A stretch of DNA of 57,776 nt, from contig JBBSVZ010000005.1 in assembly GCA_038046545.1 (NCBI GenBank), positions 1-57,776 on the forward strand, in the 5' to 3' direction. This DNA comes from Nanobdellota archaeon (GTDB lineage Archaea > Nanobdellota > Nanobdellia > Woesearchaeales > JBBSVZ01). Positions 12,600 to 31,211 of this stretch are shown here, one piece after another. Each line of letters opens with the position of its first letter. Within the stretch, counting starts at the first letter, position 1. The notes beneath the pieces were generated by a model, which did not search any database, was not told the DNA's origin, and saw nothing but the letters and a program-made list of their open reading frames with translations. A program made the translations under genes and the position numbers.

Positions 12600-13427
12600 A
12601 TGGATAAATCAGTCATTCAAAAAATAAAAGAAAATGCTATTCTTATCCGCAAGGACTCTATCCGGATCACCACTTTAGTCAACTCGGGCCACCCAGGCGG
12701 AAGCCTGAGTGCGGCTGATATCTTTGCAACACTCTACTTTCACGTTCTAAAGCACAATCCAAAAAAACCTGACTGGGAAGACCGGGATAGATTTATCCTC
12801 TCGGCAGGCCACATTTGCCCAGCGTTGTATTGTACTATGGCTCACGCCGGATACTTTCCAGTTGAAGAGCTTAACACTCTCAGGAAGTATTCTTCAAGGC
12901 TTCAAGGCCACCCAAGCAGAACTTCATTGCCCGGAATCGAAACGTCAACCGGTTCGCTTGGCCAGGGGATTTCTGTTTCTATCGGTATGGCTCTCGGACT
13001 GAAGCTCAAAAAATCAATAAGCAGAGTATATTGCCTCATGGGCGATGGCGAACAAAACGAAGGCCAAGTTTGGGAAGCAGCGCAAAGCGCAGCCCAGTAC
13101 AAGCTTGATAATTTAACAGGAATAGTTGACTGGAATGATGTACAGCAGGATGGTAGGAACAGCGATGTGATGGGAATAGAACCGTTGAAAGAAAAATACG
13201 AGTCCTTTGGCTGGCATGCGATAACAATCGATGGTAACAATGTGGAAGAATTACTAGAAGCATTCGATGAAGCAAATAGAACTAAGGGCAAGCCAAGCGT
13301 AATTCTTGCTAAAACAGTCATGGGCAAGCACGTCTCTTTCATGGAAGGCAAGTTCGAATATCACGGGAAAACATTGAAGCCCGAACAGGCTGAAAAAGCT
13401 TACAAGGAGATTGAAAATGCTGGCTGA
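12600..13427 (+). CDS. tkt: Transketolase, N-terminal (TPP-binding) subunit
   Basis: Motifs GHPGGSLSAADI and GDGEQNEGQVWEA. Split-gene organisation overlapping the C-terminal subunit gene. Confidence 0.9.
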   Translation: MDKSVIQKIKENAILIRKDSIRITTLVNSGHPGGSLSAADIFATLYFHVLKHNPKKPDWEDRDRFILSAGHICPALYCTMAHAGYFPVEELNTLRKYSSRLQGHPSRTSLPGIETSTGSLGQGISVSIGMALGLKLKKSISRVYCLMGDGEQNEGQVWEAAQSAAQYKLDNLTGIVDWNDVQQDGRNSDVMGIEPLKEKYESFGWHAITIDGNNVEELLEAFDEANRTKGKPSVILAKTVMGKHVSFMEGKFEYHGKTLKPEQAEKAYKEIENAG

Positions 13428-14373
13428 AGATTTTTCTAGTAAACAATATCCCAGGGATGGGTTTGGACATGCACTTCTCGAGCTTGCAGAAAAAAATCCG
13501 AGAGTAGTTGCATTAACCGCGGGAGTTTCAGAATCGGTAAGAACTCATTGGTTCGCAGAAAAGTTTCCAGATCGTTTCTTTCAGATGGGTATTGCAGAAC
13601 AAAACATGATAGGCGCTGCTGTAGGCCTTTCCTTAACAGGGTTTATCCCATATGCATCATCTTTTGGTTCATTCATGCCATCGCGCTCATTCGACCAAAT
13701 AAGAGTTTCAATGTGCTACAATAAGGTTAAAGTCAATTTGGTTTCAACACACTGTGGCTTAAACACTGGCGAAGATGGCGCTTCTGCCCAGATGATGGAA
13801 GACTTTTCAATGATGCGCGCGCTCCCGAACATGACTGTCATCGCACCCTGCGATTACCTTGAAACAAAAAAAGCTGTCATAGCTGCTGCAAATTATCCTG
13901 AATCTGTTTACATAAGAGTTGGAAGAGAAAAAACCCCAGTAATTACAACTGAATCAACACCTTTCAAAATTGGAAAAGCAGAAATCTTTAGGGAAGGGAA
14001 GGATGTTACAATAATGGCTTGCGGCTTAATGGTTTTTGAAGCAATAAAGGCTGCAAAAGAATTAGAAAAACAGAACATCAGCGCAGAAATTATCAACCTT
14101 CACACGATAAAGCCAATAGATTCTGAGGCAATCATTAAGTCTGCAAAAAAAACTGGAGCTGTTGTAACAGCTGAAGAACACCAGATTTACGGTGGAATGG
14201 GAAGCGCCATTGCTGAAGTCCTGTCGCAGAATTATCCAGTTCCGATGAAAATGGTTGCGATGAATGATGTTTTCGGAGTTTCAGGTAGGATGGACGAATT
14301 GTTCAAAGCGTATAATCTTGATTCTTCTGCAATTGTTAGACAGGCTCTTGCCATTATGAAACTGAAAAAATAA
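13411..14373 (+). CDS. tkt: Transketolase, C-terminal (pyrimidine-binding) subunit
   Basis: Motifs GIAEQNMIGAAVGLS, TGEDGASAQ and EEHQIYGGMGSA. Confidence 0.9.
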   Translation: MKMLAEDFSSKQYPRDGFGHALLELAEKNPRVVALTAGVSESVRTHWFAEKFPDRFFQMGIAEQNMIGAAVGLSLTGFIPYASSFGSFMPSRSFDQIRVSMCYNKVKVNLVSTHCGLNTGEDGASAQMMEDFSMMRALPNMTVIAPCDYLETKKAVIAAANYPESVYIRVGREKTPVITTESTPFKIGKAEIFREGKDVTIMACGLMVFEAIKAAKELEKQNISAEIINLHTIKPIDSEAIIKSAKKTGAVVTAEEHQIYGGMGSAIAEVLSQNYPVPMKMVAMNDVFGVSGRMDELFKAYNLDSSAIVRQALAIMKLKK

Positions 14374-14381
14374 AAATTAGT

Positions 14382-17300
14382 TCAGGGTGGTATTGGGCAT
14401 TCAGGTCCGTTGAAGGCTTTTGCTCCGCCAAGCATTGGCGGGAAAGCTGTTGGTCCTGCTATCAATGAGGTCAAGTCCTGAATATTTATATCAGTCGTGA
14501 AAAGTCCTTTTCCGGGAACCAAATCCCAGCGTTTATTGTCTGGTGACTCATTCAGGTTGGTGTTCATCCTTCGTATGGGCGCAAGAAAGCTTGTCACGTC
14601 GGCAATTGTGATCCTGTTAGTGCTATTAGGTATACTTCCATTCACGAAATCAGCTGGCCATCCGTCAATACCACAGGGATCAAAAGGATTTGTGCCTATT
14701 AATACTTCATTAGTGTTATTAAAGCCGTCATTATCCCAGTCAGGGTCGCATACATCTCCAATATTGTCGCCAATGAAAAAGGGGGCAGCAGTGTCATTTA
14801 ATTGGATTTCCTTATCAGTATTTTTTTGGTTTGGATTTGAAATGAGAGGGCAATTATCTAGTCTGTTCGTCACAGTATCATTATCATTATCGCCGTCTAA
14901 TAGTGGCAGGTAATCTCCGCCTAGGGTGATGCTGCCATTTGAATTGTAAGGTAGCATGGTATTGCCTATGCCATCACCGTTTGTGTCAGTTCCGTTATAG
15001 TCGCTCCAGAAATTGCCGCCCAGGAAAAGCCCCCCATAAATGTTAAGGCCCGCTGTCTTTGTAATGTTCCAGTTATTCCTCCCTTGATTCTGAGCGTTTA
15101 TTATGTTTTGGAAGAAGTTGTTGTAGACCAGGTTCGTGTTTGAAAAGTTGTTGATAAATATCCCGATCTGGTTGTTCGATACGTTATTGTCTTTTATTGT
15201 GTTGGTGGTTGAGTTGAAAATTACAATACCGACTTCATTGTTTGCAATTGTATTGCTTAGGACATTATTCCCTGAGCCTAACTCAATTGAAATTCCGGAA
15301 ATGCCGCCGCTCACGTTGTTGTAAGAGATTTTGATACCGTTAGAATTATGCAATTCTATGCTTCCCGAGTTGGATGTAAGGTTGCTTGATGACGAGCTAT
15401 CTAGTATTATGTTTTTTGTTGTGCTGTTGACAACAGATATCCCGCTGGAAAGGGCGATTAGAATGCTATTGCTATTCGCAGACTTGGTGTCGACACCATC
15501 TATTTTTGAATTCGAAGAGCCTTGGAATGAAATGCCAGTTTCTACGTCCTCTATTTTCCCGCCATTCACCTGGTTGTTCGAGCCTGAAACAAAAAATCCA
15601 ATAGGAAGGCTATACACGTGATTGTTTGTGAAGGTGTTCGAGCTTGAGCTTACAGCAAACCCATAAAGGAAGCTGTCGTGTATTTCATTGCTTGTGAACT
15701 GATTGCCGGAGCCACCACTAATGTTGACTACGTAGACGCCATTTGTGGAGCTTAGATTGTTGTTGAAAATACTATTGCTTGAGCTGCTTGTAAGAAGCAG
15801 GCCATTCGTCATTATATTGTTCTTTATGGTCGTTGTCATAGCGCTTTCTAAAACGGCGCTTGCATTTTTGTTATTCAACAAGGCATTGCTTGAAATTTCG
15901 TTGTTCGGGGAGTTTACAAGGAAAATGCCGAACCTGAGGTTGTCGTCTATTCTATTGTCGTGTATCCTACAGTTATTGATGATGCCAGGGGCTATTCTGG
16001 CTGCGTCTGGTGAAGACGTTTCTGTAATATATATGCCATCTATGTTCTCCAGGATCTTGTTGTTAGCAGCCTCGCAGAAAGGTGAATCCTCGAAGCTGAT
16101 CCCAGTATTATAGTTTTTGACTTCACAATCTTTTATCTTGATGTTTGTTTGGCCGATCACTTCAATGCCTGTGTTTGAATTGTTACCAACAAGCACTGTA
16201 TTATCGCACTTCACTTTCACATCCGAGGCTGCGATGTTTATGCCGTTTGGAAGTGTGTAAGTTCCTGGGCAGAGAACTGTGTTCGAAACAATGTCCATGT
16301 TGTCGGTAGGAGTTGTGCACGTGTGGCATGCGAAGCTGCATCCAGAAGAGCCCTGGTCGTTCCAGCCTGATGTTATGTTGCAGGAATTATAATCTCCTGT
16401 GTAGCTGCCAGTGCTGCTGATATCTAAACCGTTGTCACATACTTGGTTGTTTATGACCTGCCCTCCGGAACCTGTAATGACGATACCATTTCCTGTATTT
16501 AATTGTACTTCGTTATTTCTTATTTTGTTGTTATTTCCTTTAATTTCTATACCCTTGAAATAATCTTCAACAACGCAATTTTGCACAGTTGTATTAGTAA
16601 TAGTTGAACCTATGTTTATTCCAACTCCTGTACCATTTCCTGTAATTGAATTTCCAAGACAATCAAAAATAATATTACTTTTACTAATATCTGCATTGGA
16701 AAATAAGCTGGTGGTTAAACAAATTACATTGCCTGGCTGAGCCAAGCTAATCGCCGAATTTAATTGCCCGTCAACCATGCCGGATACTTTGAAAGTGCAC
16801 CAGCAAGCGTCGCCTACACCGTCATTATCGTAATCCGCTTGATCCGGGTTTTTAACAGTTTTGCAATTGTCTTCCTCGTCGTTTATACCATCGCAATCTT
16901 GATCGCCAACACAAATGTAGTCTATAGGATCTGAAACCTCAATTATTGTATGGTCAAATACAGGGCCATTGCCAGCAACATCATCTATTTCTAGCTTAAC
17001 TCTATACCTTCCTAAAGTGGGGTAGCCTCTTTCAAGCTTTGGATGGCAAGTAATTAAATCAACGTCATCATCTGGAATTCCATTTCCGTCTGTATCCCTG
17101 GTTACATCAATATCCCACTTACAACTTGCTATGCTAAAGTTATCAAAAGAACCAACAGCAGAGAACTGTATAGGGTCTCTTATGTGAACTCTTTGCGGCG
17201 GACCTGCAAAAGCGCTAGGCGGCTCTAAATCATACTCATCTTCGCTTACTACATTAACATTAAAGGTATCGGTACCTATGTTGCCGGCAGCATCTATTAC

Positions 17301-20300
17301 AGTAAGTCTCACTTGATGAGCGCCAATGGACGAATAGCCGGTAAATGGTGCAAATTCACCAGTAAGAATAGGTGCGCTTGGATTATTGATGTCTGTTTCC
17401 CAGGTGTAACTGATTATTTTATCATTATCATAGGACAAGCTTGCATCAAAGGAAAGTGTCTTTTCAACTACCGCGTATTTATTTGAATCCGTTATATGGT
17501 CTGGGAAAGCCTTAGCAAAAGGCGGAATATTATCCCCGACAAATAATTGTTTTGATGCTGCGTTATTTGAATAATTTTTTTCCTGGAATTCGTTAAACGG
17601 AGAGATCATAACAATTATGGTGTGGTTGCCAAATGATTTTGCTTTCCAAACTATCCTTGCAGTAGCAGTGCCTAAAGAACTTACATTTATTGTGCCAAAA
17701 CCAATGGTCTCATTGCCGTCCTTAAAATCTATCTCTGAGTTATTTGCAATACCCTTCCTAATGTTGTGTATTACCGCAGATATTGTGACATTATCGCCAA
17801 CGTTTGGTGTTGCATTTGAAAATGTGATATCTGATGCATTCAACGTGAGGTCAGGAAGCCTTTCTACAAAGAATGCATCGAAGGCTGTTCTATTTACTAT
17901 CGCACCACTCTTATTGACCAGGCTGGTATTTACAGACGCCACTAAATTAACCATATGCAAGTCCTCGAATTCCGGGCTTGTAGTGAACTTGTTTGCGTAT
18001 ATGCCATCGTTTAATTGGTTATCACCATGCAGGCCATCATCAAACAGTTTTATAGCCGCTAAAACAGGAGTCGCGTTTTCAAGGCTAAAGTTATCAAACC
18101 TGCTTATGTAAGCTGTTACATTCGCTTTAGCAAGCGGAGCGCCTTTGTATGCGACATATCCAAATATGCTTACATTATCCCCTGGCTCATAGGAGTATGT
18201 CGAGTTTCCAATTGCTAAACCGACAAACAAACTTGTTTTGAAGGCAACTGAAGCATCATATTTTACACCCTGCGGACATGTTACATTCGTGCCGGTAACA
18301 ACCAAGCTCCAATTTCCAGACTGAGTGGAGTTGATGGCAAACATTATTTCGCCATCTGTTTTAAAAAATACGATAGTTGAGTTATCAGAGTTTGCGGAAG
18401 TAATTACAGTCTGGCTTGGAGTAATTAAAGATAGTTCAATATTATTTGCACAGTTCTCATAATCGTCAATTGTTCCGTTGTAAAACGCGTCAATTGACCT
18501 GTATGTAAGCTTCACCCTGACATCTTCAGCCAACTCATCTAACTTGAAGCTGTGCGATTTTACTTGGCTATTATTAAGTATACCGCTAAAGGGTCCTATC
18601 AACTCATAAGCTGTTCCATTGGCAGTTTCATTAATATCCATTTGACTTTCATTCGCAATAATACCGCCCATAAAGCCCGGCGAGTGTGTAAGGAAATCTT
18701 CAGTTATGTTGATTACATCATCGTCTTTGGTCAAAAACCAGTGGAAGGTGCTTAATCCAGTAACTTTAACATTGCTTACATCTGGGCCATCATATATCTT
18801 CCCACTAACTGTATTTGTCCACAAATCACCGAACCATACGAATAAAACACCAAACGTTTTTCCAAGAACAGGGTCAGTCAATTTTAGTGTAGTCAGGGTT
18901 AATGGCAGGGAAAGATCTCCAATAGCTGGGCCAACGCCATAGATAGACAAATATTGAATATTATTATTTAGAGTATCTGGTCCCGGGGGCTGCCATTTGT
19001 ATAAAGCCCATTCAGGCGCAGGGTCAATGCCGTTTAAGTTCAAAGTTTCAATAAATGTCGAATGAGGCTCCATCTGCCCGATGGCCTCGCCCAGTATGAT
19101 TTCCACAATGGAATTAGCTATATCAGCTATAATCGGAGGCAACCCGCCTGAAGAAACGAGAGCAGTAATTGCTGTTTTAATTACTATTGGCCCATACTTG
19201 GCCATGTCAGCTCCATGCAAGGGAGTGCCAACCAAGATAATCTTTCTTACATCAAAATTAGAACCATATGTTCCATAATGCTGAGCAGCTAATCCACCCA
19301 TTCCAGAACCAACAATATCGATTTTGTCGACTCCAGTCTGCGCCCTGATTTCTGTTACTTTCTCACCTACTACTTTTGCTGATGATTGTATCGGTTGATT
19401 GGCAAATTTTACTCCTAGTAAAGAGCTGCTTAGTGTTAAACTAGACTTGAAGTATGTAAAGTCAACGGGATGAGTGCTATTTGGGCCTGTAACCTTTGGA
19501 GGTTCAATACCGTTTATGCACGCAATAACATTTATAGTATTGTTTGGAAAGTCATTCAATTTCGCTAAATATTTGTTTGTCAAAATATCATACTGAATTG
19601 CGTAACCGGCTGTTTCATTGCTGCCTTTACCCGCATTTACAGCTGAACCAACTCTTTTAAATTCTCTAAGATTTGCCCACTCCCAGACCTTTCTTGTAAC
19701 TCCTTCAAGCTTTGTACTGTCGTTATATTTTTTTACAAAGATTTTAGCGGCAAGTGGTTTATTTGTAGCCTTTGCCATGGGGCAATTTTGATTTTGAATA
19801 CCTGTCTCGCCACATAAGTCATTTCCTTTACAGTCGCACTTATCTTGACTGACCTGAGTAGGTAAGGATTCCGTTCTAAAACAATTATCTCCACAATAGG
19901 TTTTATAACCACTATAATGTGTTAAATGGATATACCCCCGGCCTTTATACCCTGCCCCTCCTTCATAAGCTCCATTAATGTAATCTGAATCGGGCAATGC
20001 ACTACAAATATGGGTTAAATTTTTTCCACTTATATTAAAATTGGGTAAGGTACCATCCTTTAATTTTGGTTTATTTTTATATACCTGATGTTTTTGAATA
20101 TATACAAAGTATGTTGCAGATTTATCTGGTTTGTGTTTCGTTTCACTTGAGCAACAGTTTCCCGCTGCCGAAGTTCCTCCAAAACAACAACTTCCGTTCG
20201 TCATCTGGCAACCTCCCCCGGCACCAAAATCTCCAATTTCTTCAAATTCATTAAAATTCGTTCCAGTTTCCAATGTTAATGTGCCTATAATAGCCGCTAA

Positions 20301-23300
20301 CAGTTCTGAAGTAAGATTAATTTTAGATACGTTAAATTCCTTTTCAATATTAGAAAGGGCTTCCCAAAGATTATCATAGTTGCTTATCGGAGCCCCTACA
20401 TTATTAGACTTAAACCACTTTTTGAAATTACTTTTTACTACATCACAACTATCTTCAATTTCTAAATCAGTACACGGACTATGACAATATGCCAAAGTGC
20501 CAGTATTAATTACCAAAGTTCCAGTACCCGTTCCTCCTATAACTGGATTAGGTGAGTCTGCGGTTTTTTCTGGAAGATCTGCATGAAATATTTCAATCTC
20601 ATTCGGAAAGTCTGTAACAACTGGATCCCCAGGTGGATCAACTTTAACATTAATTTCTGATATGTAAAGAGCTCCATCTAATTTTACCTTGTCGTCCTTA
20701 AAAGATGGCTTTATATCTTTCACTACTAAGGCAAATCCAGTTTCAGCTGTTATGCTCTTGAATTGCTTTGTGAATGTCTTTTGAAAGACTGTGTATTGCC
20801 CAGGAACCTTTATTACCCCGGTTTCAACCAGTCCCTGGATAACAGGTTTTACTTTTTGAGGTAGAGGAACTGGAATAGAAACTTCTGCAATTTTAGTCTC
20901 AGGGTTCAGGGAAAATTCGATTTCAAACTTATAATTGTCTAACAATTGGTTGAAAACTTTTTCTGGAAATTCGTCTGGATTATCATAATATAATTTTATT
21001 TCACTTAGAACAGAATCTACATCGTCATTTTCTGTAAAATTGATAATCCTGTCTAAAATCTTAACAGTACTATTTATGGTATTAACCAAACCTGTTTGAT
21101 TCTTAGCCCTGAAAGATATCAGTTGCAAAGTGGATTTCAAATCATACGCAGATTCTCTCAGTTTGCTCTTGGCTTCAATTATGTTCTGGGTTGTAGCCGC
21201 TCCGCCAGGACTGCCTCCTGAGCTGCCAGCTATAGCTTTTAAATCTTTTACATCTTGGACAAACTCCCTTCCCTGCTGCAAAACTAAATAAATGAATGCG
21301 ACTGTTTCAATTCTTGGATCTTTCAAAGGAATTATATAATTTATTTCGATATCTACCGGCTTTCTAAGATCGACGTCAAAAACCTGAAAGCCATCGCTTT
21401 CCAAGTCTTCTTTCATTTTTTTCATTTCTTTAGGACTTCTTAGGTAGTCGTGAACCAGCAGCACAGGCCTTCTGATGACGTCTATGTCCTTTGAGACATT
21501 TTTGGACCAAGTTCCTGCATTGTCTTTAACTCGGAATGTTACTTTTTGTATTCCTAAAGCAGCTGCGGTAAATGTGTGAGCAACTACACTGCCATTTATA
21601 ATCTGGTCTTCGATAATCCATTCTTGATTAGTAACGAAACCGTCATCGTCAAAGCCAAATCCATTAAACTCTACGGGTTCTCCAACAATTGCAGATAATT
21701 TTCCTTTATTATCTGTAAACCCTTTGATATATCTAATGAAAGCTGTAGGAAGTTTATTGACAACAAGCGGTTTTCTTGAGTCTGCATTTTGCGGCGACCA
21801 TAATCCAATAACATCCTTGACAAAATAATCAATTATGTGAGGATTTGCCGGAGGCAGCAAGTCTGTTGATATCGAGCTGGTAGAGCTTATATTAACAACT
21901 CCTCCTATTTTGCCAACCTTATGCGATTGCCACCAATGCTCTCTTATATCAAGTCCTGGAATTCCATAACCATTAAAATCAATTGTTTCTTTAACCAACG
22001 CAACAGGGAAGGGATTGATAGTATCGATAAAAGCGCTTGGAGGCGTGGTATTCATGGAAACATACAGAGCATCTGACTTAGGCCCTACCGAAGGATCGAA
22101 GCCATCCATCCAACCGAAAAACTGTCCAGCCTCTACAACACCATCGCCATTATAATCCCTGTATATCGCTGGTTGTGAGCAGTTCTGGCAACTAACAGTA
22201 AATTCTACAGAGAAGGCCGTGTCATTGTTGGGGGCGCTAACATCAAAATGAGTGGCGTTCTTTGTGCCTTCGCTCCTGTTCAACTTATTCGCATCAGATT
22301 CTTGAGCCTGCCATGGAATTGTGAAAAAAGTGATGGCGAAGAGCTCCTTGGTATTGTAATCCATTGATAATTTTACGTTTGGATTATCTGTTTCAAGCTG
22401 GTATTTAATTAATTCAATTGTATTATTGATAGTGTGGGGAAGCCCTGTGCCAAACCCTAAATTGTAATCGGTAACAAGTTTGTTCGGCTCTCCATAGCTA
22501 ACTGTACCGTTACAAAAATCGGTTTGAGTTTTAGACCAGTCTCTGTTTTTAAGGCCACTTGCATCCAACTTGTACCCTAAGGTCACCCACCCTTTAAGCC
22601 AGGCACCTCTATTGCAATATTTAGTAACTGGAACTGTAAACAAACTACTGCTGGGAAAAGATGGAGTACCGATTGAATATTCCCCCCTTGTTTCCTTGAA
22701 TGTGTTTTCAGATGATCCAGAATAAGTATACCCTCCAGGAGCTGATATTCTTATATAACCATCCTCCTCAGAGCATTTTTTTAGAAGCGTGCCTTTTTTC
22801 TCTAAAGTCTGCGTCTCGGTTACAGTAATGTAATCAGTAAAAGTTTCTCTTCCTACTGCTTTTATTTTACATGTAAAATCTTGGGGAACACTTTCAGAGC
22901 CTGATGCAAATATTTCATAATCAAATGGATGGTCCAATATTTCCGCATTTTTTTTTCCTGCATGCAATTCTATTTCTGGTTCATAAACTATCCAGGCGTA
23001 AAACTCAGCACTTTTGTCAGTAATAAATATGTCGCTTCCCGGATTTCCATAGTACGTATTCCCTCCAAAAGTTATGGACATTTCATTAATTTCAACTATA
23101 TCTGCGTTGCATTCATTTGTAAGATTTACAATAAACTTATCGAAATCTGTGTCATTGACATTCCCGGGTCCTGTTTTTTGGCATTGACCGCCTGACGATG
23201 TGACAGCGGTGACGTTCCAGATAAAAGAGTCGTTTGTCGGCTGCGGGCATGGCTCATCTATTGCAACTGTAATCGATGTGATGTTATCAATAGGAATTGT

Positions 23301-23849
23301 GTTAGCTGATGAATTAAAAATGTCAGTTTCTGTCAAGAAAACCGAGGTAATGCCTGAACTTAGCGCTTTTAGCGTGTATCTTCCTAAAACGCCCTTGGAA
23401 CCTCCGGGCTCTGCTGTGCCTGTGTCAACAACACTAACAAAGTGAGAACCATCGGTATCAATTACTTGGTCACTAAAATCAGCAAGGGTGCTTCCAGGTT
23501 GAGAAGATAAGAGCAATCCATGATCATGTCCATTAACCGAAAGCAAAATATTATTAAAAAAAATTTTATAGGTGAATCCTGCCAGATCTTTATCTAATGG
23601 GATAGAGTCTACGAAGGTATCTATATCGAATGTGGAGTTAGTGGCTACAGAAATGCAATAATCTATGGTTCCTAAAGATGTTGCATCATTTCCTGCCGGA
23701 TCTGCATCAATGCCTACAGTAGTTCCTGGATCGGCATTAACAAGACCTGAAAAAAGTATTGCCAGACCTACAAAAATGGAAAGAATAATTGCAGATTTTC
23801 CTATACGTCTTTGCAACCTCGTAATCCCCCGCCCACGAACAAATACCAC
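14382..23849 (-). CDS. Giant (3155 aa) multidomain secreted/surface protein, GTG start
   Basis: A single uninterrupted ORF with an N-terminal signal anchor. Recognisable segments include CARDB, PKD and thrombospondin type 3 repeats, a long parallel beta-helix (PbH1-type) repeat region, a GH19-like segment and a degenerate lipase-like segment (see findings). Confidence 0.9.
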   Translation of the reverse strand: MVFVRGRGITRLQRRIGKSAIILSIFVGLAILFSGLVNADPGTTVGIDADPAGNDATSLGTIDYCISVATNSTFDIDTFVDSIPLDKDLAGFTYKIFFNNILLSVNGHDHGLLLSSQPGSTLADFSDQVIDTDGSHFVSVVDTGTAEPGGSKGVLGRYTLKALSSGITSVFLTETDIFNSSANTIPIDNITSITVAIDEPCPQPTNDSFIWNVTAVTSSGGQCQKTGPGNVNDTDFDKFIVNLTNECNADIVEINEMSITFGGNTYYGNPGSDIFITDKSAEFYAWIVYEPEIELHAGKKNAEILDHPFDYEIFASGSESVPQDFTCKIKAVGRETFTDYITVTETQTLEKKGTLLKKCSEEDGYIRISAPGGYTYSGSSENTFKETRGEYSIGTPSFPSSSLFTVPVTKYCNRGAWLKGWVTLGYKLDASGLKNRDWSKTQTDFCNGTVSYGEPNKLVTDYNLGFGTGLPHTINNTIELIKYQLETDNPNVKLSMDYNTKELFAITFFTIPWQAQESDANKLNRSEGTKNATHFDVSAPNNDTAFSVEFTVSCQNCSQPAIYRDYNGDGVVEAGQFFGWMDGFDPSVGPKSDALYVSMNTTPPSAFIDTINPFPVALVKETIDFNGYGIPGLDIREHWWQSHKVGKIGGVVNISSTSSISTDLLPPANPHIIDYFVKDVIGLWSPQNADSRKPLVVNKLPTAFIRYIKGFTDNKGKLSAIVGEPVEFNGFGFDDDGFVTNQEWIIEDQIINGSVVAHTFTAAALGIQKVTFRVKDNAGTWSKNVSKDIDVIRRPVLLVHDYLRSPKEMKKMKEDLESDGFQVFDVDLRKPVDIEINYIIPLKDPRIETVAFIYLVLQQGREFVQDVKDLKAIAGSSGGSPGGAATTQNIIEAKSKLRESAYDLKSTLQLISFRAKNQTGLVNTINSTVKILDRIINFTENDDVDSVLSEIKLYYDNPDEFPEKVFNQLLDNYKFEIEFSLNPETKIAEVSIPVPLPQKVKPVIQGLVETGVIKVPGQYTVFQKTFTKQFKSITAETGFALVVKDIKPSFKDDKVKLDGALYISEINVKVDPPGDPVVTDFPNEIEIFHADLPEKTADSPNPVIGGTGTGTLVINTGTLAYCHSPCTDLEIEDSCDVVKSNFKKWFKSNNVGAPISNYDNLWEALSNIEKEFNVSKINLTSELLAAIIGTLTLETGTNFNEFEEIGDFGAGGGCQMTNGSCCFGGTSAAGNCCSSETKHKPDKSATYFVYIQKHQVYKNKPKLKDGTLPNFNISGKNLTHICSALPDSDYINGAYEGGAGYKGRGYIHLTHYSGYKTYCGDNCFRTESLPTQVSQDKCDCKGNDLCGETGIQNQNCPMAKATNKPLAAKIFVKKYNDSTKLEGVTRKVWEWANLREFKRVGSAVNAGKGSNETAGYAIQYDILTNKYLAKLNDFPNNTINVIACINGIEPPKVTGPNSTHPVDFTYFKSSLTLSSSLLGVKFANQPIQSSAKVVGEKVTEIRAQTGVDKIDIVGSGMGGLAAQHYGTYGSNFDVRKIILVGTPLHGADMAKYGPIVIKTAITALVSSGGLPPIIADIANSIVEIILGEAIGQMEPHSTFIETLNLNGIDPAPEWALYKWQPPGPDTLNNNIQYLSIYGVGPAIGDLSLPLTLTTLKLTDPVLGKTFGVLFVWFGDLWTNTVSGKIYDGPDVSNVKVTGLSTFHWFLTKDDDVINITEDFLTHSPGFMGGIIANESQMDINETANGTAYELIGPFSGILNNSQVKSHSFKLDELAEDVRVKLTYRSIDAFYNGTIDDYENCANNIELSLITPSQTVITSANSDNSTIVFFKTDGEIMFAINSTQSGNWSLVVTGTNVTCPQGVKYDASVAFKTSLFVGLAIGNSTYSYEPGDNVSIFGYVAYKGAPLAKANVTAYISRFDNFSLENATPVLAAIKLFDDGLHGDNQLNDGIYANKFTTSPEFEDLHMVNLVASVNTSLVNKSGAIVNRTAFDAFFVERLPDLTLNASDITFSNATPNVGDNVTISAVIHNIRKGIANNSEIDFKDGNETIGFGTINVSSLGTATARIVWKAKSFGNHTIIVMISPFNEFQEKNYSNNAASKQLFVGDNIPPFAKAFPDHITDSNKYAVVEKTLSFDASLSYDNDKIISYTWETDINNPSAPILTGEFAPFTGYSSIGAHQVRLTVIDAAGNIGTDTFNVNVVSEDEYDLEPPSAFAGPPQRVHIRDPIQFSAVGSFDNFSIASCKWDIDVTRDTDGNGIPDDDVDLITCHPKLERGYPTLGRYRVKLEIDDVAGNGPVFDHTIIEVSDPIDYICVGDQDCDGINDEEDNCKTVKNPDQADYDNDGVGDACWCTFKVSGMVDGQLNSAISLAQPGNVICLTTSLFSNADISKSNIIFDCLGNSITGNGTGVGINIGSTITNTTVQNCVVEDYFKGIEIKGNNNKIRNNEVQLNTGNGIVITGSGGQVINNQVCDNGLDISSTGSYTGDYNSCNITSGWNDQGSSGCSFACHTCTTPTDNMDIVSNTVLCPGTYTLPNGINIAASDVKVKCDNTVLVGNNSNTGIEVIGQTNIKIKDCEVKNYNTGISFEDSPFCEAANNKILENIDGIYITETSSPDAARIAPGIINNCRIHDNRIDDNLRFGIFLVNSPNNEISSNALLNNKNASAVLESAMTTTIKNNIMTNGLLLTSSSSNSIFNNNLSSTNGVYVVNISGGSGNQFTSNEIHDSFLYGFAVSSSSNTFTNNHVYSLPIGFFVSGSNNQVNGGKIEDVETGISFQGSSNSKIDGVDTKSANSNSILIALSSGISVVNSTTKNIILDSSSSSNLTSNSGSIELHNSNGIKISYNNVSGGISGISIELGSGNNVLSNTIANNEVGIVIFNSTTNTIKDNNVSNNQIGIFINNFSNTNLVYNNFFQNIINAQNQGRNNWNITKTAGLNIYGGLFLGGNFWSDYNGTDTNGDGIGNTMLPYNSNGSITLGGDYLPLLDGDNDNDTVTNRLDNCPLISNPNQKNTDKEIQLNDTAAPFFIGDNIGDVCDPDWDNDGFNNTNEVLIGTNPFDPCGIDGWPADFVNGSIPNSTNRITIADVTSFLAPIRRMNTNLNESPDNKRWDLVPGKGLFTTDINIQDLTSLIAGPTAFPPMLGGAKAFNGPECPIPP

Positions 23850-23871
23850 ATAAAACGCATTTTAAGACGAA

Positions 23872-23887
23872 GGGTATATATATTTTT
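23872..23887 (-). promoter_or_regulatory. TATA-rich element (GGTATATATATTTTT) upstream of the giant gene
   Basis: Lies 23-38 nt upstream of the GTG at 23849. Confidence 0.35.
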
Positions 23888-23892
23888 AGCTT

Positions 23893-24008
23893 CAATGAGT
23901 TACATATTCGGAGTTTCAGGTAGGATGGATGAGCTGTTCAAAGCCTATAATCTTGATTCTTCTGCGATTGTTAGACCGGCTCTATCCGCAATCAAAACTA
24001 AAGGCTGA
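23893..24008 (+). pseudogene. Orphan duplicate of the last ~38 codons of the transketolase C-terminal subunit gene
   Basis: Translates to MSYIFGVSGRMDELFKAYNLDSSAIVRPALSAIKTKG*, against the tkt end MNDVFGVSGRMDELFKAYNLDSSAIVRQALAIMKLKK*. The 77-nt core has 6 mismatches. Confidence 0.8.
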
Positions 24009-24030
24009 ATCCAAAAAGCATTAAATATTC

Positions 24031-26460
24031 GTGACCGATTTGCCTATTATGGCAAAATGGTCAAGGAAAAAAAAGACAATTTACGCTCTCCTCTTCTTGA
24101 CAGCAGTCATTATTTTGGTGTTTTTTGGTGCTCAACTGGGCTTGTACTTAAACTTCCTCGTCGGGAATGACATCCTAATCAGGCTTTCGGCTAGCAGAGA
24201 ATACATTTCAATTATGAATGGGGAAAAAACAAATGTGACTTTCAAAATTGACACGCTCAACAATGTGTTTTGCGAGGCCAAGTGCATGCTTGAGTTCGAA
24301 GACTTAACCAGGAACTCTTCAGCCAAACAAAACATTTCATTAAGATCTGGCAGCAAAATCCAACGAACTTTTGAAATTATTGCCCCGTTAACAGGCACCG
24401 GGAGCGAAGTCTATCGGTTCAGCGTATCATGCTCGAATGAAAAAAAGGTTTTTTGCCCAGCAGATGACAGCAGGACTTCAAGAAAAGTTCTTGTGGTAGT
24501 TGAGCACGATTTGACCCCCGTTGAGCGGCTATTGCAAAAAGACTTGAAGGAAAAAATCTTGGGATTCCAGGAAACTCTTGCAAACCAGTCATCCGCTGAG
24601 GGAGCAATAAAATCTGCTTACGACAAAATTGAACAATCAAAAGAAAGCAGCGATGCTGAGCGGAACTGGTTCTTCCTGGTAACTTCTCTTAAAGAAAACG
24701 AAAATGCATTGGCTGCTCTAATCCAGCTCTGGAAACAGGGAGATTACTATGCTGCCTCAAACAAGGCAGAACTGGTGATGAGCTCATTCTCAGCAACAAA
24801 TGTAAAGCTTGCAACAGCAAAGCAATCTGTTGAGAGTCTTGCCAACCGGCATAATGAGATAATAAGGAAGTTTAACGAGGCAAAAGAAAAAGTATCTAAG
24901 CTAACAGCAGTAAAAACTACTGATTCCCTAATTATGAATGAAGCTGAGAATGCAATACGCCATTTTAATGAATCAACAAATTCAGCAAATCAGGAGATTA
25001 AGCTGGAAGCGCGCGAAAACTTAGCGGAAACGGCTTTGACTAACACACTCTTATCATCAAGCAAGATAAACTACTCTTTGAGAATCGAAGCAGTCAAAAA
25101 GGAAGTTAAAACTGACCTAAAATTTGAGCTTGTCTGCAATGTTTCGGGAAATTGTCAGACTCATCCCTCGCCTTACAACAGATCACATCAGACTGAAGTT
25201 GACATGAATTTAACCTGCGAGCGCCTTAATGTTTTGAACTCAATAATCAAACAAATTACAGCTAATTACACTAATATAACTCTTAATGAGAGTTCTAAAC
25301 TTGTTGCAGATAAAGAACTGGCAACAATAGAATATGCGCTGAAAGAGAGATATGCCTTGCAAATAGACCCTGATGGCGTAAACGGGCCAGAACTCTTAGA
25401 AATGCTTGGGAGTAAAAACAATCTAACAAATATTTCCAGTTTGGTTAACAAAACCTTGTTGCTGGCTGAACTCTCAAAAATACCTTTGGATAGCTGCGCA
25501 ACTTTACCAGCCAAACAAATTGCCTTAGTTGACTTTTCTGCTGCTGAAATTATAATCGCGCCACAAACTCCCCAACAAATTTTTCAGCCACTAATCGATC
25601 CCAAACCGCAATGTTGCTTGTTTGGTTCATGTACTGCCTGCTGCGAAGGGGAATCCTGCCGAAATAGCCCTTCAAAATACCCGATAATCTTTCTCCACGG
25701 GCACTTGGTGAATAACCAGCTTTCAGTAGACTACAGCCTCGAGGCATTCAACTATTTTCAACTGGCTCTTGAGAAGGAAGGCTGGCTCGATGCTGGTGCG
25801 ATATCGCTTTATACTTCCGGAGAAGTTCCTTACGGAGCATGGGGAAGATTTCCAAATCCGCTCACCATAAAAGGCAGTTATTATTATGACGTATTCCTCG
25901 ACCAGGGAAATTATGTATACCAGCCGACCAAAAGTGAAAATATAGACACCTATTCAATCCGGCTGAAAGAACTTATAGATAAGGTGCAGTTTAGGACAGG
26001 CAGCCCAAAAGTAATCCTTGCAGGCCACAGCATGGGCGGTCTTGTTGCGAGAAGGTACTTGCAGATATTCGGAAATGAAAAAGTGGACAGGCTTATCGTT
26101 ATTGGCACCCCCAATAAAGGCATAGAAGGCAATGTCGCGGCGTTCTGCCCGGTCATTGGAGCTAAACGCGAGTGCGAGGACATGAGCGAAGACAGCATTT
26201 TCCTAAAAAAACTTAATTCTGGAGAACCTTCCAAAATACCCCTATTCAATATAATCGGCACAGGCTGCAATATGAACGGCGAACAGGGGGACGGGATAGT
26301 CCTTGAGAGAAGCGCTCAGCTTGATGGCGCATTCAATTTTGTTTTCAATGGAACTTGCAGCAGCCAATATGATAATCTGCACAACCACATGCTTTTCCCG
26401 GAAGAATACCCTGAAGTTTACGAGTTTTTTAAGAAAGCCTTGACGGCTAATTCGACATAG
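24031..26460 (+). CDS. Membrane-anchored coiled-coil protein with a Cys-rich linker and a C-terminal PGAP1/lipase-like alpha/beta-hydrolase domain; likely start is ATG 24049
   Basis: An N-terminal TM is followed by a long helical Lys/Glu/Ala-rich region and CCLFGSCTACCEGESC. Hydrolase motifs are IIFLHGH, AGHSMGGLVARRY and VIGTPNKG. The TATA GCATTAAATATTC fits the ATG at 24049. Confidence 0.75.
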   Translation: MTDLPIMAKWSRKKKTIYALLFLTAVIILVFFGAQLGLYLNFLVGNDILIRLSASREYISIMNGEKTNVTFKIDTLNNVFCEAKCMLEFEDLTRNSSAKQNISLRSGSKIQRTFEIIAPLTGTGSEVYRFSVSCSNEKKVFCPADDSRTSRKVLVVVEHDLTPVERLLQKDLKEKILGFQETLANQSSAEGAIKSAYDKIEQSKESSDAERNWFFLVTSLKENENALAALIQLWKQGDYYAASNKAELVMSSFSATNVKLATAKQSVESLANRHNEIIRKFNEAKEKVSKLTAVKTTDSLIMNEAENAIRHFNESTNSANQEIKLEARENLAETALTNTLLSSSKINYSLRIEAVKKEVKTDLKFELVCNVSGNCQTHPSPYNRSHQTEVDMNLTCERLNVLNSIIKQITANYTNITLNESSKLVADKELATIEYALKERYALQIDPDGVNGPELLEMLGSKNNLTNISSLVNKTLLLAELSKIPLDSCATLPAKQIALVDFSAAEIIIAPQTPQQIFQPLIDPKPQCCLFGSCTACCEGESCRNSPSKYPIIFLHGHLVNNQLSVDYSLEAFNYFQLALEKEGWLDAGAISLYTSGEVPYGAWGRFPNPLTIKGSYYYDVFLDQGNYVYQPTKSENIDTYSIRLKELIDKVQFRTGSPKVILAGHSMGGLVARRYLQIFGNEKVDRLIVIGTPNKGIEGNVAAFCPVIGAKRECEDMSEDSIFLKKLNSGEPSKIPLFNIIGTGCNMNGEQGDGIVLERSAQLDGAFNFVFNGTCSSQYDNLHNHMLFPEEYPEVYEFFKKALTANST

Positions 26461-26550
26461 TGAACTATTAAGTACTCTGGGCCAAACCATTAGCCTACTA
26501 AATGTTGTTTTATCGCATTGGGGAGTTTTCAGCTTAAAAAACTTCTAAAT

Positions 26551-26655
26551 ATGCGCTCACACGCCGCGCGGGCTCTATTGTGTTGGGCGTTTTATTGTCG
26601 CAAAGCGACTTTGGAGCGCCGCATATTAATTCTTGGCCAGCACGGCCTGGAGTGC
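26551..26655 (-). repeat. Copy B (inverted orientation) of the GC-rich intergenic element
   Basis: The reverse complement aligns with 45757-45866, including the core AGCCCGCGCGGCGTGTGAGCGC and the hairpin GTCGC-TTT-GCGAC. Confidence 0.6.
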
Positions 26656-26692
26656 AAAATATAATTTAGACCCTGCATTTGATACGATAGGG

Positions 26693-27136: not shown

Positions 27137-27232
27137 CCAAAAGGGGCATTAATTATAAATTTTGCCTGTAAATCATGGTTTCCACTCGGTTTCCTGTGAC
27201 TTCTTTTATATGCGGTTGCTTTACCCACCTAC

Positions 27233-28813: not shown

Positions 28814-28815
28814 AG

Positions 28816-29637
28816 CTATTTAACTTTGCCCTTCAAGGAGATAATGTTAGTTTTGAAGTGAGGCGTCCTCTCGATTAAGCCCTTTTCTTCAAGGCGCCTT
28901 ACTATTTTGCTCATTTTAGATTTTGAGAAGTCAAGCTTAATGGCAACTTCTTTTTGTTTTTCTGTTCCTGCTCTGACTGCTTCGATTACCTTGTGCTCTT
29001 CGGTTGAAAGCATTTCGGTAACGTGCTTCCTGTTCCTTTTTTTTAAATAAAAAAATACTCCCGCTATGCAAATGAGGGAGAAAACAAGAGGCAGCACTAT
29101 TAACAACGGATTTATTTCTTCTCCGCCCTCATAAAAAACAGAAATAGACTGCTCGTCATTAAATGTCCAAGTCAGCGTAATAGAGCGGCCATCTGTTGAT
29201 ATCTCCTGAGGCTGCGGGATTGCATTAGGCTTTTTCTCGTTCAACGAGTAGCCTAGAGGCAATGTTAGTGAAACTTTAACTGTACCGTTGATGGGTGGAG
29301 TGAAGGAAGAACGGTAAGTTCTTTGCTTTCCATTAGCGTCTATCTGGCTGTCGAACAGCAAGTCAAAGGAAACTTCATTATTGCCTTGGGTAGGCAGAAT
29401 AATTGCATAAGTATCATTCTTTTGGATTATTTCATAATCCCCGCTATAAACCACGCTCAACGGCTTGTCTAAAGTTTGAAATTCAACAGTTTCGTATTCG
29501 CTGCTCTCTAATCGTATTGTATTTTGCTGCGTGATAATATTATTTGGTGAAACCCTTATGTTTATTTCAAGGGTCGGCTCTGCTGCTGCGCTGCCAATTA
29601 GAAGGCATAAAACCAATATGAATTTTATCAATCTCAT
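28816..29637 (-). CDS. Single-pass membrane protein with an extracytoplasmic domain and a cytoplasmic MarR/TrmB-like wHTH
   Basis: Signal peptide, about 170 aa of beta-rich region, TM LLIVLPLVFSLICIAGVFFYL, then EEHKVIEAVRAGTEKQKEVAIKLDFSKSKMSKIVRRLEEKGLIER. Confidence 0.6.
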   Translation of the reverse strand: MRLIKFILVLCLLIGSAAAEPTLEINIRVSPNNIITQQNTIRLESSEYETVEFQTLDKPLSVVYSGDYEIIQKNDTYAIILPTQGNNEVSFDLLFDSQIDANGKQRTYRSSFTPPINGTVKVSLTLPLGYSLNEKKPNAIPQPQEISTDGRSITLTWTFNDEQSISVFYEGGEEINPLLIVLPLVFSLICIAGVFFYLKKRNRKHVTEMLSTEEHKVIEAVRAGTEKQKEVAIKLDFSKSKMSKIVRRLEEKGLIERTPHFKTNIISLKGKVK

Positions 29638-29667
29638 TTAAAGAGGGAGAATTCCTGCTTTTAAAAA

Positions 29668-31162: not shown

Positions 31163-31190
31163 CAAGCCCGCGCGGCGATTGAGCGCATAT
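31163..31190 (+). repeat. Copy C (core only) of the GC-rich intergenic element
   Basis: CAAGCCCGCGCGGCGATTGAGCGCATAT followed by T7. The GCCCGCGCGGCGATTGAGCGC core is identical to that of copy D. Confidence 0.6.
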
Positions 31191-31211
31191 TTTTTTCAGA
31201 CCAAGAAAATT

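What the first reader, a model, noticed from the sequence alone, without database searches (positions are those of the whole stretch)
14258..24008. Single giant gene behaves as a 9.5-kb insertion bracketed by a direct duplication of the transketolase 3' end
The last ~116 nt of the tkt C-terminal subunit gene (14258-14373) recur in direct orientation at 23893-24008. That second copy lies just past the giant gene's start and promoter. In the 77-nt core (14272-14348 vs 23907-23983) I count 6 mismatches. Five are synonymous in the tkt frame (GAC/GAT, GAA/GAG, TTG/CTG, GCG/GCC, GCA/GCG) and one changes Q to P. The final 25 nt are more divergent but still the same length and in frame, down to a stop codon (ALAIMKLKK* vs ALSAIKTKG*). 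The only gene between the copies is the 3155-aa ORF, just 8 nt from the tkt stop. The promoter of the next gene follows the orphan copy at once. This is the pattern left when incoming DNA carries a surrogate 3' end for the gene it lands in, as in integrative elements or allelic exchange with a relative. No integrase lies inside the segment. That the giant surface-protein gene is a recently acquired or exchangeable cassette is my inference.
Basis: partly seen in the sequence, partly recalled or inferred. Interest (0 to 1): 0.8.

Follow-up and report, generated by a model that had tools for sequence, protein, structure and literature searches.

The report
Giant-gene insertion that displaced transketolase's end
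In a groundwater DPANN archaeon, a 9.5-kb surface-protein gene was inserted into the last ~100 bases of the transketolase gene and brought a replacement gene end with it, leaving the original end stranded 9.6 kb away; this is a clear, well-supported gene-acquisition scar of a known kind, not a new type of system.

Summary
The last 102-116 nt of the transketolase C-subunit gene (14258-14373) recur in direct orientation at 23893-24008. The core is 77 nt, 92% identical, E=5e-28, and it is the only direct repeat of at least 40 nt in the window. Independent assemblies confirm both junctions. The only gene between the copies is a 3155-aa beta-helix/PKD/CARDB surface protein.

In the two closest relatives (82-84% identical tkt-C), tkt-C is followed within 24-31 nt by the abhydrolase homologue, which is an empty site. 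The orphan's tail and spacer align with a relative's native tkt-tail/abhydrolase junction (score 20 against a null of 7±1.3). So the orphan is the displaced native end, and it still carries the abhydrolase promoter. The copies differ mostly at synonymous sites in the core (pS 0.32, pN 0.017) and strongly in the unconstrained tail. That pattern fits two functional tkt genes from related lineages, not decay after an in-place duplication.

No integrase, transposase, att-like palindrome or compositional anomaly was found. The most likely mechanism is homology-anchored recombination in the tkt 3' end, with DNA from a related lineage. A decayed integrative element is the main rival. No donor or population variants were found. 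This is a new member of a known kind and of moderate interest.

The parts
12600..13427 (+). Transketolase N-terminal (TPP-binding) subunit gene
   Evidence: Pfam Transketolase_N, E=1.6e-58. Syntenic in L085, L086 and L087.
13417..14373 (+). Transketolase C-terminal subunit gene (318 aa), intact. Its last ~34 codons are the surrogate end.
   Evidence: Pfam Transket_pyr and Transketolase_C. The exact protein is in the public collection as P0001. Same length and same C-terminal motif (FGxSG...) as relatives.
14258..14373 (+). Repeat copy 1: the functional 3' end of tkt-C. Solid homology 14272-14373, high-identity core 14272-14348. Inferred to have arrived with the insert.
   Evidence: Its tail and downstream sequence show no similarity to the relatives' native junction (score 6, null level).
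14374..14381 (.). 8-nt spacer between the convergent stop codons of tkt-C and the giant gene
   Evidence: Sequence read directly. Such short or negative convergent spacers are the norm in this window.
14382..23849 (-). Cargo: a single 3155-aa gene for a secreted or anchored surface protein. It has an N-terminal hydrophobic signal/anchor, PKD, CARDB, three NosD/beta-helix blocks and TSP3 repeats. It is absent from this site in relatives.
   Evidence: Pfam. Sequence. The best homologues are only 45% identical over about half the length, and lie in other DPANN genomes without a tkt neighbour. Absent in L085, L086 and L087.
23850..23892 (-). Promoter stub of the giant gene. The TATA box AAAAATATATATA is at 23875-23887, centred about 29 nt before the GTG start.
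   Evidence: TATA-position analysis. Most strong TATA matches in the window sit 25-29 nt before start codons, so transcripts are leaderless. Function is inferred, not measured.
23893..24008 (+). Repeat copy 2: the orphan. This is the displaced native 3' end of tkt-C. Solid homology 23907-24008; 23893-23906 matches only 8/14.
   Evidence: It is contiguous with the ancestral spacer and the abhydrolase gene, as in L086. Its one non-synonymous core change (Q->P at 14342/23977) is derived in the orphan, because all three relatives carry the functional copy's base.
24009..24048 (+). Native spacer with the abhydrolase promoter: BRE-like CCAAAAAGC at 24011-24019 and TATA ATTAAATA at 24020-27, centred 25 nt before the ATG.
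   Evidence: The homologous box in L086 (CAAAGCATTAATATT) overlaps the tkt stop codon.
24049..26460 (+). Abhydrolase-like membrane protein gene (803 aa). It is the ancestral immediate downstream neighbour of tkt-C.
   Evidence: Pfam Abhydrolase_1 and PGAP1-like. Homologues directly follow tkt-C in L085 and L086, and follow a small ORF in L087.

Best explanation
This is the scar of a lineage-specific gene acquisition.

Ancestrally, tkt-C ran straight into the abhydrolase gene, and the abhydrolase promoter lay on top of the tkt tail and stop codon. DNA then entered from a related lineage in which a tkt 3' end lay tail-to-tail with the giant surface-protein gene. It recombined with the chromosome inside the last ~100 nt of tkt-C. 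There are two possible routes. One is a single crossover of a circularised fragment. The other is a homologous crossover in tkt plus an illegitimate join just beyond the giant gene's promoter.

The result is a tkt-C gene completed by the incoming surrogate end, then the giant gene with its own promoter, then the native tkt end as a 102-116-nt orphan still attached to the abhydrolase promoter and gene.

Because the insert brought a replacement end and the orphan kept the promoter, neither neighbour was damaged. That is probably why this event survived in a genome where signals overlap.

Shown: the repeat, the empty site in relatives, the orphan being the native end, and divergence of the copies under coding constraint. 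Inferred: the donor, the recombination route and the promoter functions.
For: - The repeat is highly significant and unique in the window. Its junctions are confirmed by independent assemblies.
- Empty site: in L085 the tkt-C stop is 31 nt from the abhydrolase start, and in L086 it is 24 nt. Conserved synteny runs on both sides: L16, Pyr_redox, MJ0043_C, Lit, NurA, tktN, tktC | abhydrolase, DUF1761, RpiB.
- Orphan tail plus non-coding spacer against L086's native junction: score 20, null 7.0±1.3, maximum 15 in 2000 shuffles. The functional tail plus its downstream sequence scores 6.
- Core substitutions: 6 synonymous and 1 non-synonymous (pS 0.32, pN 0.017).
- Differences are clustered in the unconstrained tail, 12/24 against 7/78 in the core (Fisher P=4e-5). 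A model of in-place duplication with a neutrally decaying orphan predicts about 9.6 non-synonymous core changes; 1 is observed (P=7e-4).
- pS between the copies (0.32) is far below pS to L085, L086 and L087 (0.77-0.86). So the event post-dates the split from those relatives, and the donor was closer than any of them.
- No integrase, transposase or other mobile-element gene lies in the insert or anywhere in the window. The only recombinase is a housekeeping XerA equivalog 11 kb away.
- GC and codon usage match the host, as expected for a related donor.
- Precedent: single crossover of a circular molecule carrying a gene end duplicates 109-950 bp of that end (PMC3240628). The HFIR model has been proposed for displaced 3' ends and orphans (PMC5361080).
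Against: - No donor-type arrangement (tkt converging on a giant-gene homologue) was found. The nearest giant homologues are 45% identical and have other neighbours.
- No empty-site or alternative allele was found in this population.
- The substitution statistics rest on 19 differences in 102 nt.
- Recombination between sequences about 9% diverged over about 100 nt would be inefficient. The longest identical block is 23 nt.
- A second scar in the window is at a tRNA gene, the classic integrase target. That raises the prior for a site-specific route.
Confidence: 0.6

Rival explanations
1. This is the remnant of an integrase-mediated integrative element that targets the 3' end of tkt-C and carries a tkt-like att site to restore the gene. 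The integrase and other element genes were later deleted, or acted in trans, leaving only the cargo gene between attL and attR.
For: - A direct duplication of the target gene's 3' end with the gene reconstituted is the hallmark of such elements.
- A 23-nt identical block sits at the upstream edge of the homology, where a crossover core would be expected.
- A second scar in the same window lies at a tRNA gene, the typical integrase target, and brackets a toxin-antitoxin pair of the kind mobile elements carry.
- This genome trims non-coding DNA hard (about 88% coding, overlapping convergent genes), so an element could decay down to its cargo.
Against: - The insert contains no integrase, excisionase, replication or any other element gene. 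One ORF fills it to within 8 nt on one side and 43-57 nt on the other.
- The only tyrosine recombinase in the window is an XerA equivalog (266 bits, cutoff 220), 11 kb away.
- Neither scar holds a dif-like or other palindromic site, and they share no motif.
- The giant gene has no relative in IMG/VR viral contigs.
- The repeat copies differ at 19 of 102 positions.
Confidence: 0.2
2. The ~100-nt tkt end was duplicated in place, for example by fill-in of a long staggered break or by replication slippage during insertion of the giant gene. Both copies were identical at first and diverged later.
For: It needs no donor carrying tkt next to the giant gene. The two copies are each other's closest relatives by far: 92% in the core, against 60-69% to L085, L086 and L087.
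Against: - Core changes are 6 synonymous to 1 non-synonymous. A neutrally evolving orphan should have collected about 9.6 non-synonymous changes for the observed synonymous divergence (P=7e-4).
- Differences are concentrated in the tail (Fisher P=4e-5).
- The functional tail shows no similarity to the native junction of relatives, while the orphan's tail does.
Confidence: 0.08
3. The giant gene and both copies are ancestral at this site. L085, L086 and L087 each lost the gene by recombination between the direct repeats.
For: Direct repeats would allow clean deletion that restores a tkt-abhydrolase junction.
Against: - It needs two to three independent losses against one gain, because the window, L085 and L086 are roughly equidistant and L087 is the outgroup.
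- pS between the copies (0.32) is much lower than pS between the orthologues (0.77-0.86), so the duplication is younger than those splits.
- It still requires an insertion of the same kind earlier.
Confidence: 0.05
4. Assembly or binning artefact: a chimeric join of two strains' tkt ends.
For: The sequence comes from a metagenome. Short assemblies break inside the giant gene. One contig end (L004 nt 1-32) diverges.
Against: - Four further contigs, from two other assemblies and one sequencing run, reproduce both junctions at 99.9-100%.
- A 119.6-kb contig carries identical tkt-C, giant and abhydrolase proteins.
- The copies share no exact run longer than 23 nt, too short to mislead an assembler.
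Confidence: 0.01

Closest known systems
Additive integration by single crossover of a circular molecule, or by homology-facilitated illegitimate recombination (de Vries & Wackernagel 2002 and Prudhomme et al. 2002, as cited in PMC5361080; E. coli conjugation study PMC3240628)
   Same: A short homologous anchor at the end of a gene sits next to the foreign DNA. The outcome is a duplication of about 100-1000 bp of the gene end flanking the insert. No dedicated recombinase is needed.
   Different: Those cases are laboratory events in bacteria with known donors. This is a natural event in a DPANN archaeon. The donor is unknown, the anchor is about 9% diverged, and the route (single crossover or one-sided illegitimate join) cannot be told apart.
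C-terminal displacement and orphan arrays in Rhs, CDI and T6SS effector loci (Jackson et al. 2009; Poole et al. 2011; Kirchberger et al. 2017, PMC5361080)
   Same: Incoming DNA with a homologous upstream part supplies a new 3' end. The old 3' end is pushed downstream and remains as an orphan fragment that still carries part of the conserved region.
   Different: There the new end encodes a different toxin tip plus an immunity gene, and the process diversifies the protein. Here the target is a housekeeping enzyme, and the surrogate end encodes the same sequence, apart from the poorly conserved last ~8 residues, which differ. The payload is a separate, convergent gene.
Integrative elements and genomic islands that insert into the 3' end of tRNA or protein genes and carry a replacement end in attP
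   Same: Direct repeats flank the insert. The target gene is reconstituted by the element-borne copy. The native end is displaced to the far side. Relatives have an empty site.
   Different: There is no integrase or any element gene. The insert is a single chromosomal-type gene with host-like composition. The repeats are 17-22% diverged overall, without a recognisable recombinase site.
Flexible genomic islands carrying cell-surface protein genes that vary among related prokaryotic strains (general knowledge, not tested here)
   Same: The cargo is a giant, fast-evolving surface protein, present in one lineage and absent at the same site in relatives.
   Different: Such islands are usually exchanged by double crossover in conserved flanks and leave no duplication. 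Strain-level variability was not demonstrated here.

Membership tests
Integrase-mediated integrative element (attL/attR-flanked island) | Direct repeats flank the insert, and one copy completes the target gene's 3' end | tested here: met
   14258-14373 and 23893-24008. tkt-C is intact with the normal length and C-terminal motif.
Integrase-mediated integrative element (attL/attR-flanked island) | A tyrosine or serine recombinase is encoded within the element, usually next to an att site | tested here: not met
   The only ORF between the repeats has NosD, beta-helix, PKD, CARDB and TSP3 domains. The nearest recombinase is an XerA equivalog at 35287-36099, outside the insert.
Integrase-mediated integrative element (attL/attR-flanked island) | An identical crossover core is shared by attL and attR | tested here: inconclusive
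   The longest identical blocks are 23 nt (14272-14294) and 20 nt (14311-14330). There is no palindromic arm-spacer-arm site above the null.
Integrase-mediated integrative element (attL/attR-flanked island) | Other mobile-element genes, or relatives among viruses and plasmids | tested here: not met
   None in the insert or the window. No IMG/VR relative of the cargo.
Homology-anchored additive integration (single crossover or HFIR) | A stretch homologous to the recipient sits next to the foreign DNA at one insert boundary | tested here: met
   102 nt of tkt 3' end abut the cargo, with an 8-nt gap.
Homology-anchored additive integration (single crossover or HFIR) | The anchor comes from a homologous functional gene of another lineage, not from an in-place copy | tested here: met
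   pS 0.32 against pN 0.017 in the core. Differences cluster in the tail. The in-place model is rejected at P=7e-4. The sample is small (19 differences).
Homology-anchored additive integration (single crossover or HFIR) | The recipient's pre-insertion (empty) site is identifiable | tested here: met
   L085 and L086 have tkt-C directly followed by the abhydrolase gene. The orphan and spacer are homologous to L086's junction.
Homology-anchored additive integration (single crossover or HFIR) | Microhomology at the illegitimate joint (HFIR variant) | tested here: inconclusive
   23893-23906 matches 14258-14271 at 8/14 positions. This could be degraded homology, microhomology or chance.
Homology-anchored additive integration (single crossover or HFIR) | A donor genome with the anchor and cargo adjacent | tested here: not met
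   No giant-gene homologue above 45% identity exists in 5.8 billion proteins, and those found lack a tkt neighbour. This may reflect sampling.
Rhs/CDI/T6SS-type C-terminal displacement | The old 3' end persists downstream as an orphan that retains part of the conserved region | tested here: met
   The orphan at 23907-24008 retains 33 codons and a stop, in frame.
Rhs/CDI/T6SS-type C-terminal displacement | The incoming 3' end encodes a different polymorphic toxin tip with a cognate immunity gene | tested here: not met
   The surrogate end encodes the same tkt residues in the core. The target is a metabolic enzyme.
Transposon insertion with target-site duplication | A short identical TSD, terminal inverted repeats and a transposase | tested here: not met
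   The repeat is about 100 nt and 17-22% diverged. No terminal inverted repeats lie at the insert ends and there is no transposase.
Split (two-subunit) transketolase | Separate adjacent genes carry Transketolase_N and Transket_pyr plus Transketolase_C | tested here: met
   Pfam. The same split pair occurs in all relatives.

The most novel reading that the evidence does not exclude
The tkt/giant-gene scar and the tRNA/toxin-antitoxin scar in the same 58-kb window may be two products of one still-unrecognised process in DPANN archaea. This process would be integrase-free, or would use a recombinase supplied in trans. It would add compact, promoter-bearing gene cassettes at the 3' ends of housekeeping genes, and each cassette would bring its own replacement end, so that neither the target gene nor the overlapping promoter of the next gene is damaged. 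It would be a route by which host-interaction surface proteins are swapped between related episymbiont lineages.
Probability: 0.1. Interest if true: 0.7.

Novelty: new member of a known kind. Interest (0 to 1): 0.35.

Why it matters
Giant surface proteins are thought to mediate attachment of ultra-small DPANN archaea to their hosts, but how these genes move is largely unknown. This locus gives a datable, base-resolved example. A 9.5-kb surface-protein gene was acquired after the split from the nearest sequenced relatives, apparently from a related lineage and without any mobile-element machinery. The event preserved a housekeeping gene and the overlapping promoter of its neighbour. It also shows a practical point for compact genomes with leaderless transcripts. 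Promoters lie on top of upstream gene ends, so insertions are likely to survive only if they duplicate or replace that end. Orphan gene ends may therefore be useful markers for finding recent acquisitions in such genomes. The finding does not reveal a new mechanism or system.

Tried and rejected
1. GTDB species representatives, searched with tkt-C. The best hits are only 56-57% identical and share only the tktN-tktC pair. Too distant for synteny.
2. Exact-protein look-ups for strain variants. All contigs are the same strain and carry the insert. The 119.6-kb contig has an identical giant protein. One look-up failed only because the GTG start was translated as V.
3. Donor search with the giant protein. 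Nothing above 45% identity, no tkt neighbour and no viral-contig relative.
4. Abhydrolase search for alternative occupants of the site. It found only a 37% relative with a rearranged context.
5. Composition test. GC, GC3 and RSCU are not distinct. The 4-mer correlation is lower (0.88 against 0.96-0.98), but one repetitive N/G/S/T-rich gene could explain that, so I treat it as uninformative.
6. XerA/dif-like or shared recombinase site in the two scars. Nothing above the null.
7. Orphan fragments in relatives or at the second window-specific insert at 27137-29667. None found.
8. GH19/lysozyme-like domain in giant residues 1100-1480, a resemblance recalled from memory. Pfam and PDB sequence searches do not support it.
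9. Polarising the core differences with outgroups. Synonymous sites are saturated. Only the Q->P change could be polarised, and it is derived in the orphan.
10. The JGI metagenome scan was not used. The 5.8-billion-protein search already covers JGI and found no closer relatives.
Full report
**Observation**

The two segments align without gaps. 91 of 116 positions are identical over 14258-14373 against 23893-24008. The match is 102 nt at 83% by the repeat finder. The 77-nt core (14272-14348 against 23907-23983) has 6 mismatches, with BLASTN E=5e-28; the next-best match of the tkt end anywhere in the window has E=0.21. It is the only direct repeat of at least 40 nt in the 57,776-nt window.

Codon by codon, the core differences are five synonymous changes and one Q->P. 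The last eight codons differ strongly but keep length, frame and a stop codon.

Other contigs from two further assemblies and one sequencing run reproduce both junctions at 99.9-100% identity. L001 and L002 cross the tkt/giant 3' junction. L003 and L004 cross the giant 5'/orphan/abhydrolase junction. A 119.6-kb contig encodes identical tkt-C, giant and abhydrolase proteins. An assembly artefact is excluded.

**Setting**

The genes are:
- a split transketolase, tktN at 12600-13427 and tktC at 13417-14373;
- a convergent 3155-aa ORF at 14382-23849, with an N-terminal hydrophobic signal/anchor, PKD, CARDB, NosD/beta-helix blocks and TSP3 repeats;
- an 803-aa abhydrolase-like membrane protein at 24049-26460.

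An intron-containing tRNA, NurA, XerA and archaeal LonB mark the organism as an archaeon. NCBI names the proteins 'Nanoarchaeota archaeon'. The contigs come from Hainich groundwater. The genome is compact: about 88% coding, with convergent genes often abutting or overlapping.

**Is the giant gene an insertion?**

GTDB species representatives were too distant: at most 57% identical in tkt-C, with only tktN-tktC shared. The large protein collection yielded three closer relatives with long contigs: L086 (84%), L085 (82%) and L087 (74%). All share the upstream synteny L16, Pyr_redox, MJ0043_C, Lit, NurA, tktN, tktC.

In L085 and L086 the tkt-C stop codon is followed after 31 and 24 nt by the abhydrolase homologue, then DUF1761 and RpiB. 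L087 has one small extra ORF between tkt-C and the abhydrolase gene. None has the giant gene or any homologue of it nearby.

**Which copy is native?**

The orphan's tail and the non-coding spacer before the abhydrolase start align with L086's tkt tail, stop codon and spacer:

TCCAAAAAGCATTAAATATTCGTGACCGATT-TGCCT
TCCACAAAGCATT-AATATTGCTGCACGATTCTGCCT

The local score is 20. The null is 7.0±1.3, with a maximum of 15 in 2000 shuffles. The functional copy's tail plus its downstream sequence scores 6.

The orphan's tail peptide (ALSAIKTKG) also resembles the relatives' tails (ALSVIKDK, ALVAIKRK) more than the functional tail (ALAIMKLKK) does. So the orphan is the displaced native 3' end, and the 3' end now completing tkt-C arrived with the insert.

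**How did the copies diverge?**

In the 26-codon core, pS=0.32 and pN=0.017 (6 synonymous changes and 1 non-synonymous). Differences are concentrated in the last 24 nt, 12/24 against 7/78 in the core (Fisher P=4e-5).

Suppose the copies arose by in-place duplication and the orphan then drifted neutrally. The observed synonymous divergence would predict about 9.6 non-synonymous core changes. One is observed (Poisson P=7e-4). That one change, Q->P, is derived in the orphan, because all three relatives carry the functional copy's base.

A conserved core with silent changes plus a free-running C-terminal tail is what two orthologous functional genes look like. The inference is that the surrogate end came from a functional tkt of another lineage.

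pS between the window's tkt-C and L085, L086 and L087 is 0.77-0.86. So the source was much closer than any sequenced relative, and the event post-dates those splits. That also makes ancestral presence with repeated loss unlikely.

**Mechanism**

The insert holds nothing but the giant gene. The only recombinase in the window is an XerA equivalog 11 kb away (266 bits, cutoff 220). There are no transposases or other element genes in the window. Neither repeat contains a dif-like palindrome. The cargo has no relative in IMG/VR. GC, GC3 and codon usage are host-like.

Two experimentally documented, recombinase-independent routes give exactly this topology. The first is single crossover of a circular molecule carrying a gene end, which produced 109-950-bp duplications of that end in E. 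coli (PMC3240628). The second is homology-facilitated illegitimate recombination, proposed for displaced 3' ends and orphans in T6SS and Rhs loci (PMC5361080).

I consider homology-anchored recombination with DNA from a related lineage the best explanation (0.6). The two sub-routes cannot be separated with the data. The main rival is a decayed integrative element (0.2). It gains some weight from a second scar at a tRNA gene (see below) and from the 23-nt identical block at the upstream edge of the homology.

The weakest point of the preferred model is that no donor-type arrangement was found. The nearest giant homologues are 45% identical over about half the length and have other neighbours.

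**Why this architecture is tolerated**

Among the strong TATA matches upstream of the window's genes (score ≥7 of 8), 10 of 19 are centred 25-29 nt before the start codon. Transcripts are therefore typically leaderless.

The abhydrolase box (CCAAAAAGC ATTAAATA, 24011-24027) is centred at -25 and begins three bases after the orphan's stop codon. In L086 the homologous box overlaps the tkt stop codon itself. A plain insertion after the tkt stop would therefore have separated the abhydrolase gene from its promoter, and one before the stop would have truncated tkt. An insert that brings a replacement end and leaves the native end in place damages neither.

The giant gene's own TATA box (23875-23887, centred at -29) fills the 43-57-nt stub between its start codon and the orphan. 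These promoter assignments are inferences from sequence.

**Limits**

- No empty-site or alternative-cassette allele of this population was seen, so 'exchangeable' is not shown.
- The first 32 nt of L004 diverge from the window exactly after the signal-anchor codons. This could be a chimeric contig end at 4x coverage or a hint of a variant.
- The substitution statistics rest on 19 differences.

**Comparison and verdict**

The scar has the same topology as att-flanked islands, Rhs/T6SS C-terminal displacement and laboratory single-crossover or HFIR products. It fails the defining integrase and element-gene tests for the first. It fails the polymorphic-toxin test for the second. It meets the testable criteria for the third, except for an identified donor.

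It is a new member of a known kind: a clean, datable example of giant surface-protein gene acquisition in a DPANN archaeon. Interest is moderate (0.35). The most novel reading not excluded is a recurrent, integrase-free cassette-addition process at gene 3' ends in these archaea. I give it about 0.1 probability.

Noticed in passing
window 2822-2878 and 3609-3730 (minus strand), insert 2879-3608: A second scar of the same topology. The 3' part of the intron-containing tRNA gene, plus part of its intron, is duplicated in direct orientation about 790 nt downstream (58/62 aligned nt identical, with a 13-nt gap). The duplication brackets a compact two-gene module: a wHTH-like gene at 2956-3237 and a ParE/RelE-like toxin gene at 3234-3605. 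There is no integrase. An inverted paralogous pair lies at 1642-1902 and 1275-1637; its toxin passes the Pfam ParE_toxin cutoff, and the two toxins are 40% identical (E=1e-27).
   Followed up: partly
window 27137-29667: A second lineage-specific insert lies in the same syntenic block. Two genes (a 526-aa protein with a weak CHB_HEX_C-like hit, and a 273-aa protein with a C-terminal wHTH/DUF7343 domain) sit between DUF1761 and RpiB, which are adjacent in L086. This insert has no flanking duplication. Synteny with relatives ends after RpiB: Rpe is replaced by PCMT.
   Followed up: partly
L004 nt 1-32 (corresponds to window just below 23756): A contig from sample ERZ1292635 matches the window from the abhydrolase gene back through the orphan, the giant promoter and the first 31 codons (signal anchor) of the giant gene. 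It then diverges completely for its last 32 nt. This could be a chimeric contig end at about 4x coverage, or a strain variant with a different gene body behind the same promoter and signal anchor.
   Followed up: partly
window 45751-45877, 26535-26661 (reverse complement), 6177-6224, 31164-31193: A dispersed GC-rich intergenic repeat of up to about 120 nt, with the invariant stretch AAGCCCGCGCGGC..TGAGCGC and an internal hairpin (AGTCGTTTTACGAC). There are four full or partial copies in the window and no Rfam match. The predicted fold is modestly better than shuffles (z=-2.4). It could be a small RNA, a MITE-like element or a regulatory or terminator module.
   Followed up: partly
window 14382-23849 (giant protein residues ~793-840 and ~1500-1560): The giant protein contains pieces resembling a PGAP1/lipase-type alpha/beta-hydrolase: PVLLVHD..., then IDIVGSGMGGLAAQHY...ILVGTPLHGA. 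Glycine stands where the GxSxG serine would be, and about 650 residues are inserted between the two pieces. Residues 1487-1570 match L087's abhydrolase at 37%, and there is a weak DUF915 hit. In the two 45%-identical giant homologues, an S8 peptidase is among the domains listed; the window's protein has no S8 hit.
   Followed up: partly
window 35287-36099 (minus strand): An archaeal XerA equivalog (266 bits, cutoff 220). It overlaps the 3' end of the convergent gene 34452-35333 by 47 nt. It is the only recombinase in the window.
   Followed up: yes
window 6-644 and 656-1216: At the left edge of the window lie the C-terminal part of a Laminin_G_3/concanavalin-like protein, which is probably the end of another very large surface protein running off the contig, and an Imm5-like putative immunity protein (E=8e-40). 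This hints at polymorphic-toxin/immunity biology next to the toxin-antitoxin modules.
   Followed up: no
L086 2870-2924 and 3025-3079; L087 5350-5817: The relatives show their own small lineage-specific changes in this block. L086 has an S8 peptidase gene inserted upstream of Pyr_redox, with a perfect 55-nt direct repeat near its start. L087 has a 155-aa ORF of unknown function exactly at the tkt|abhydrolase site, without any tkt fragment duplication. The tkt|abhydrolase boundary may be a recurrent insertion point.
   Followed up: partly
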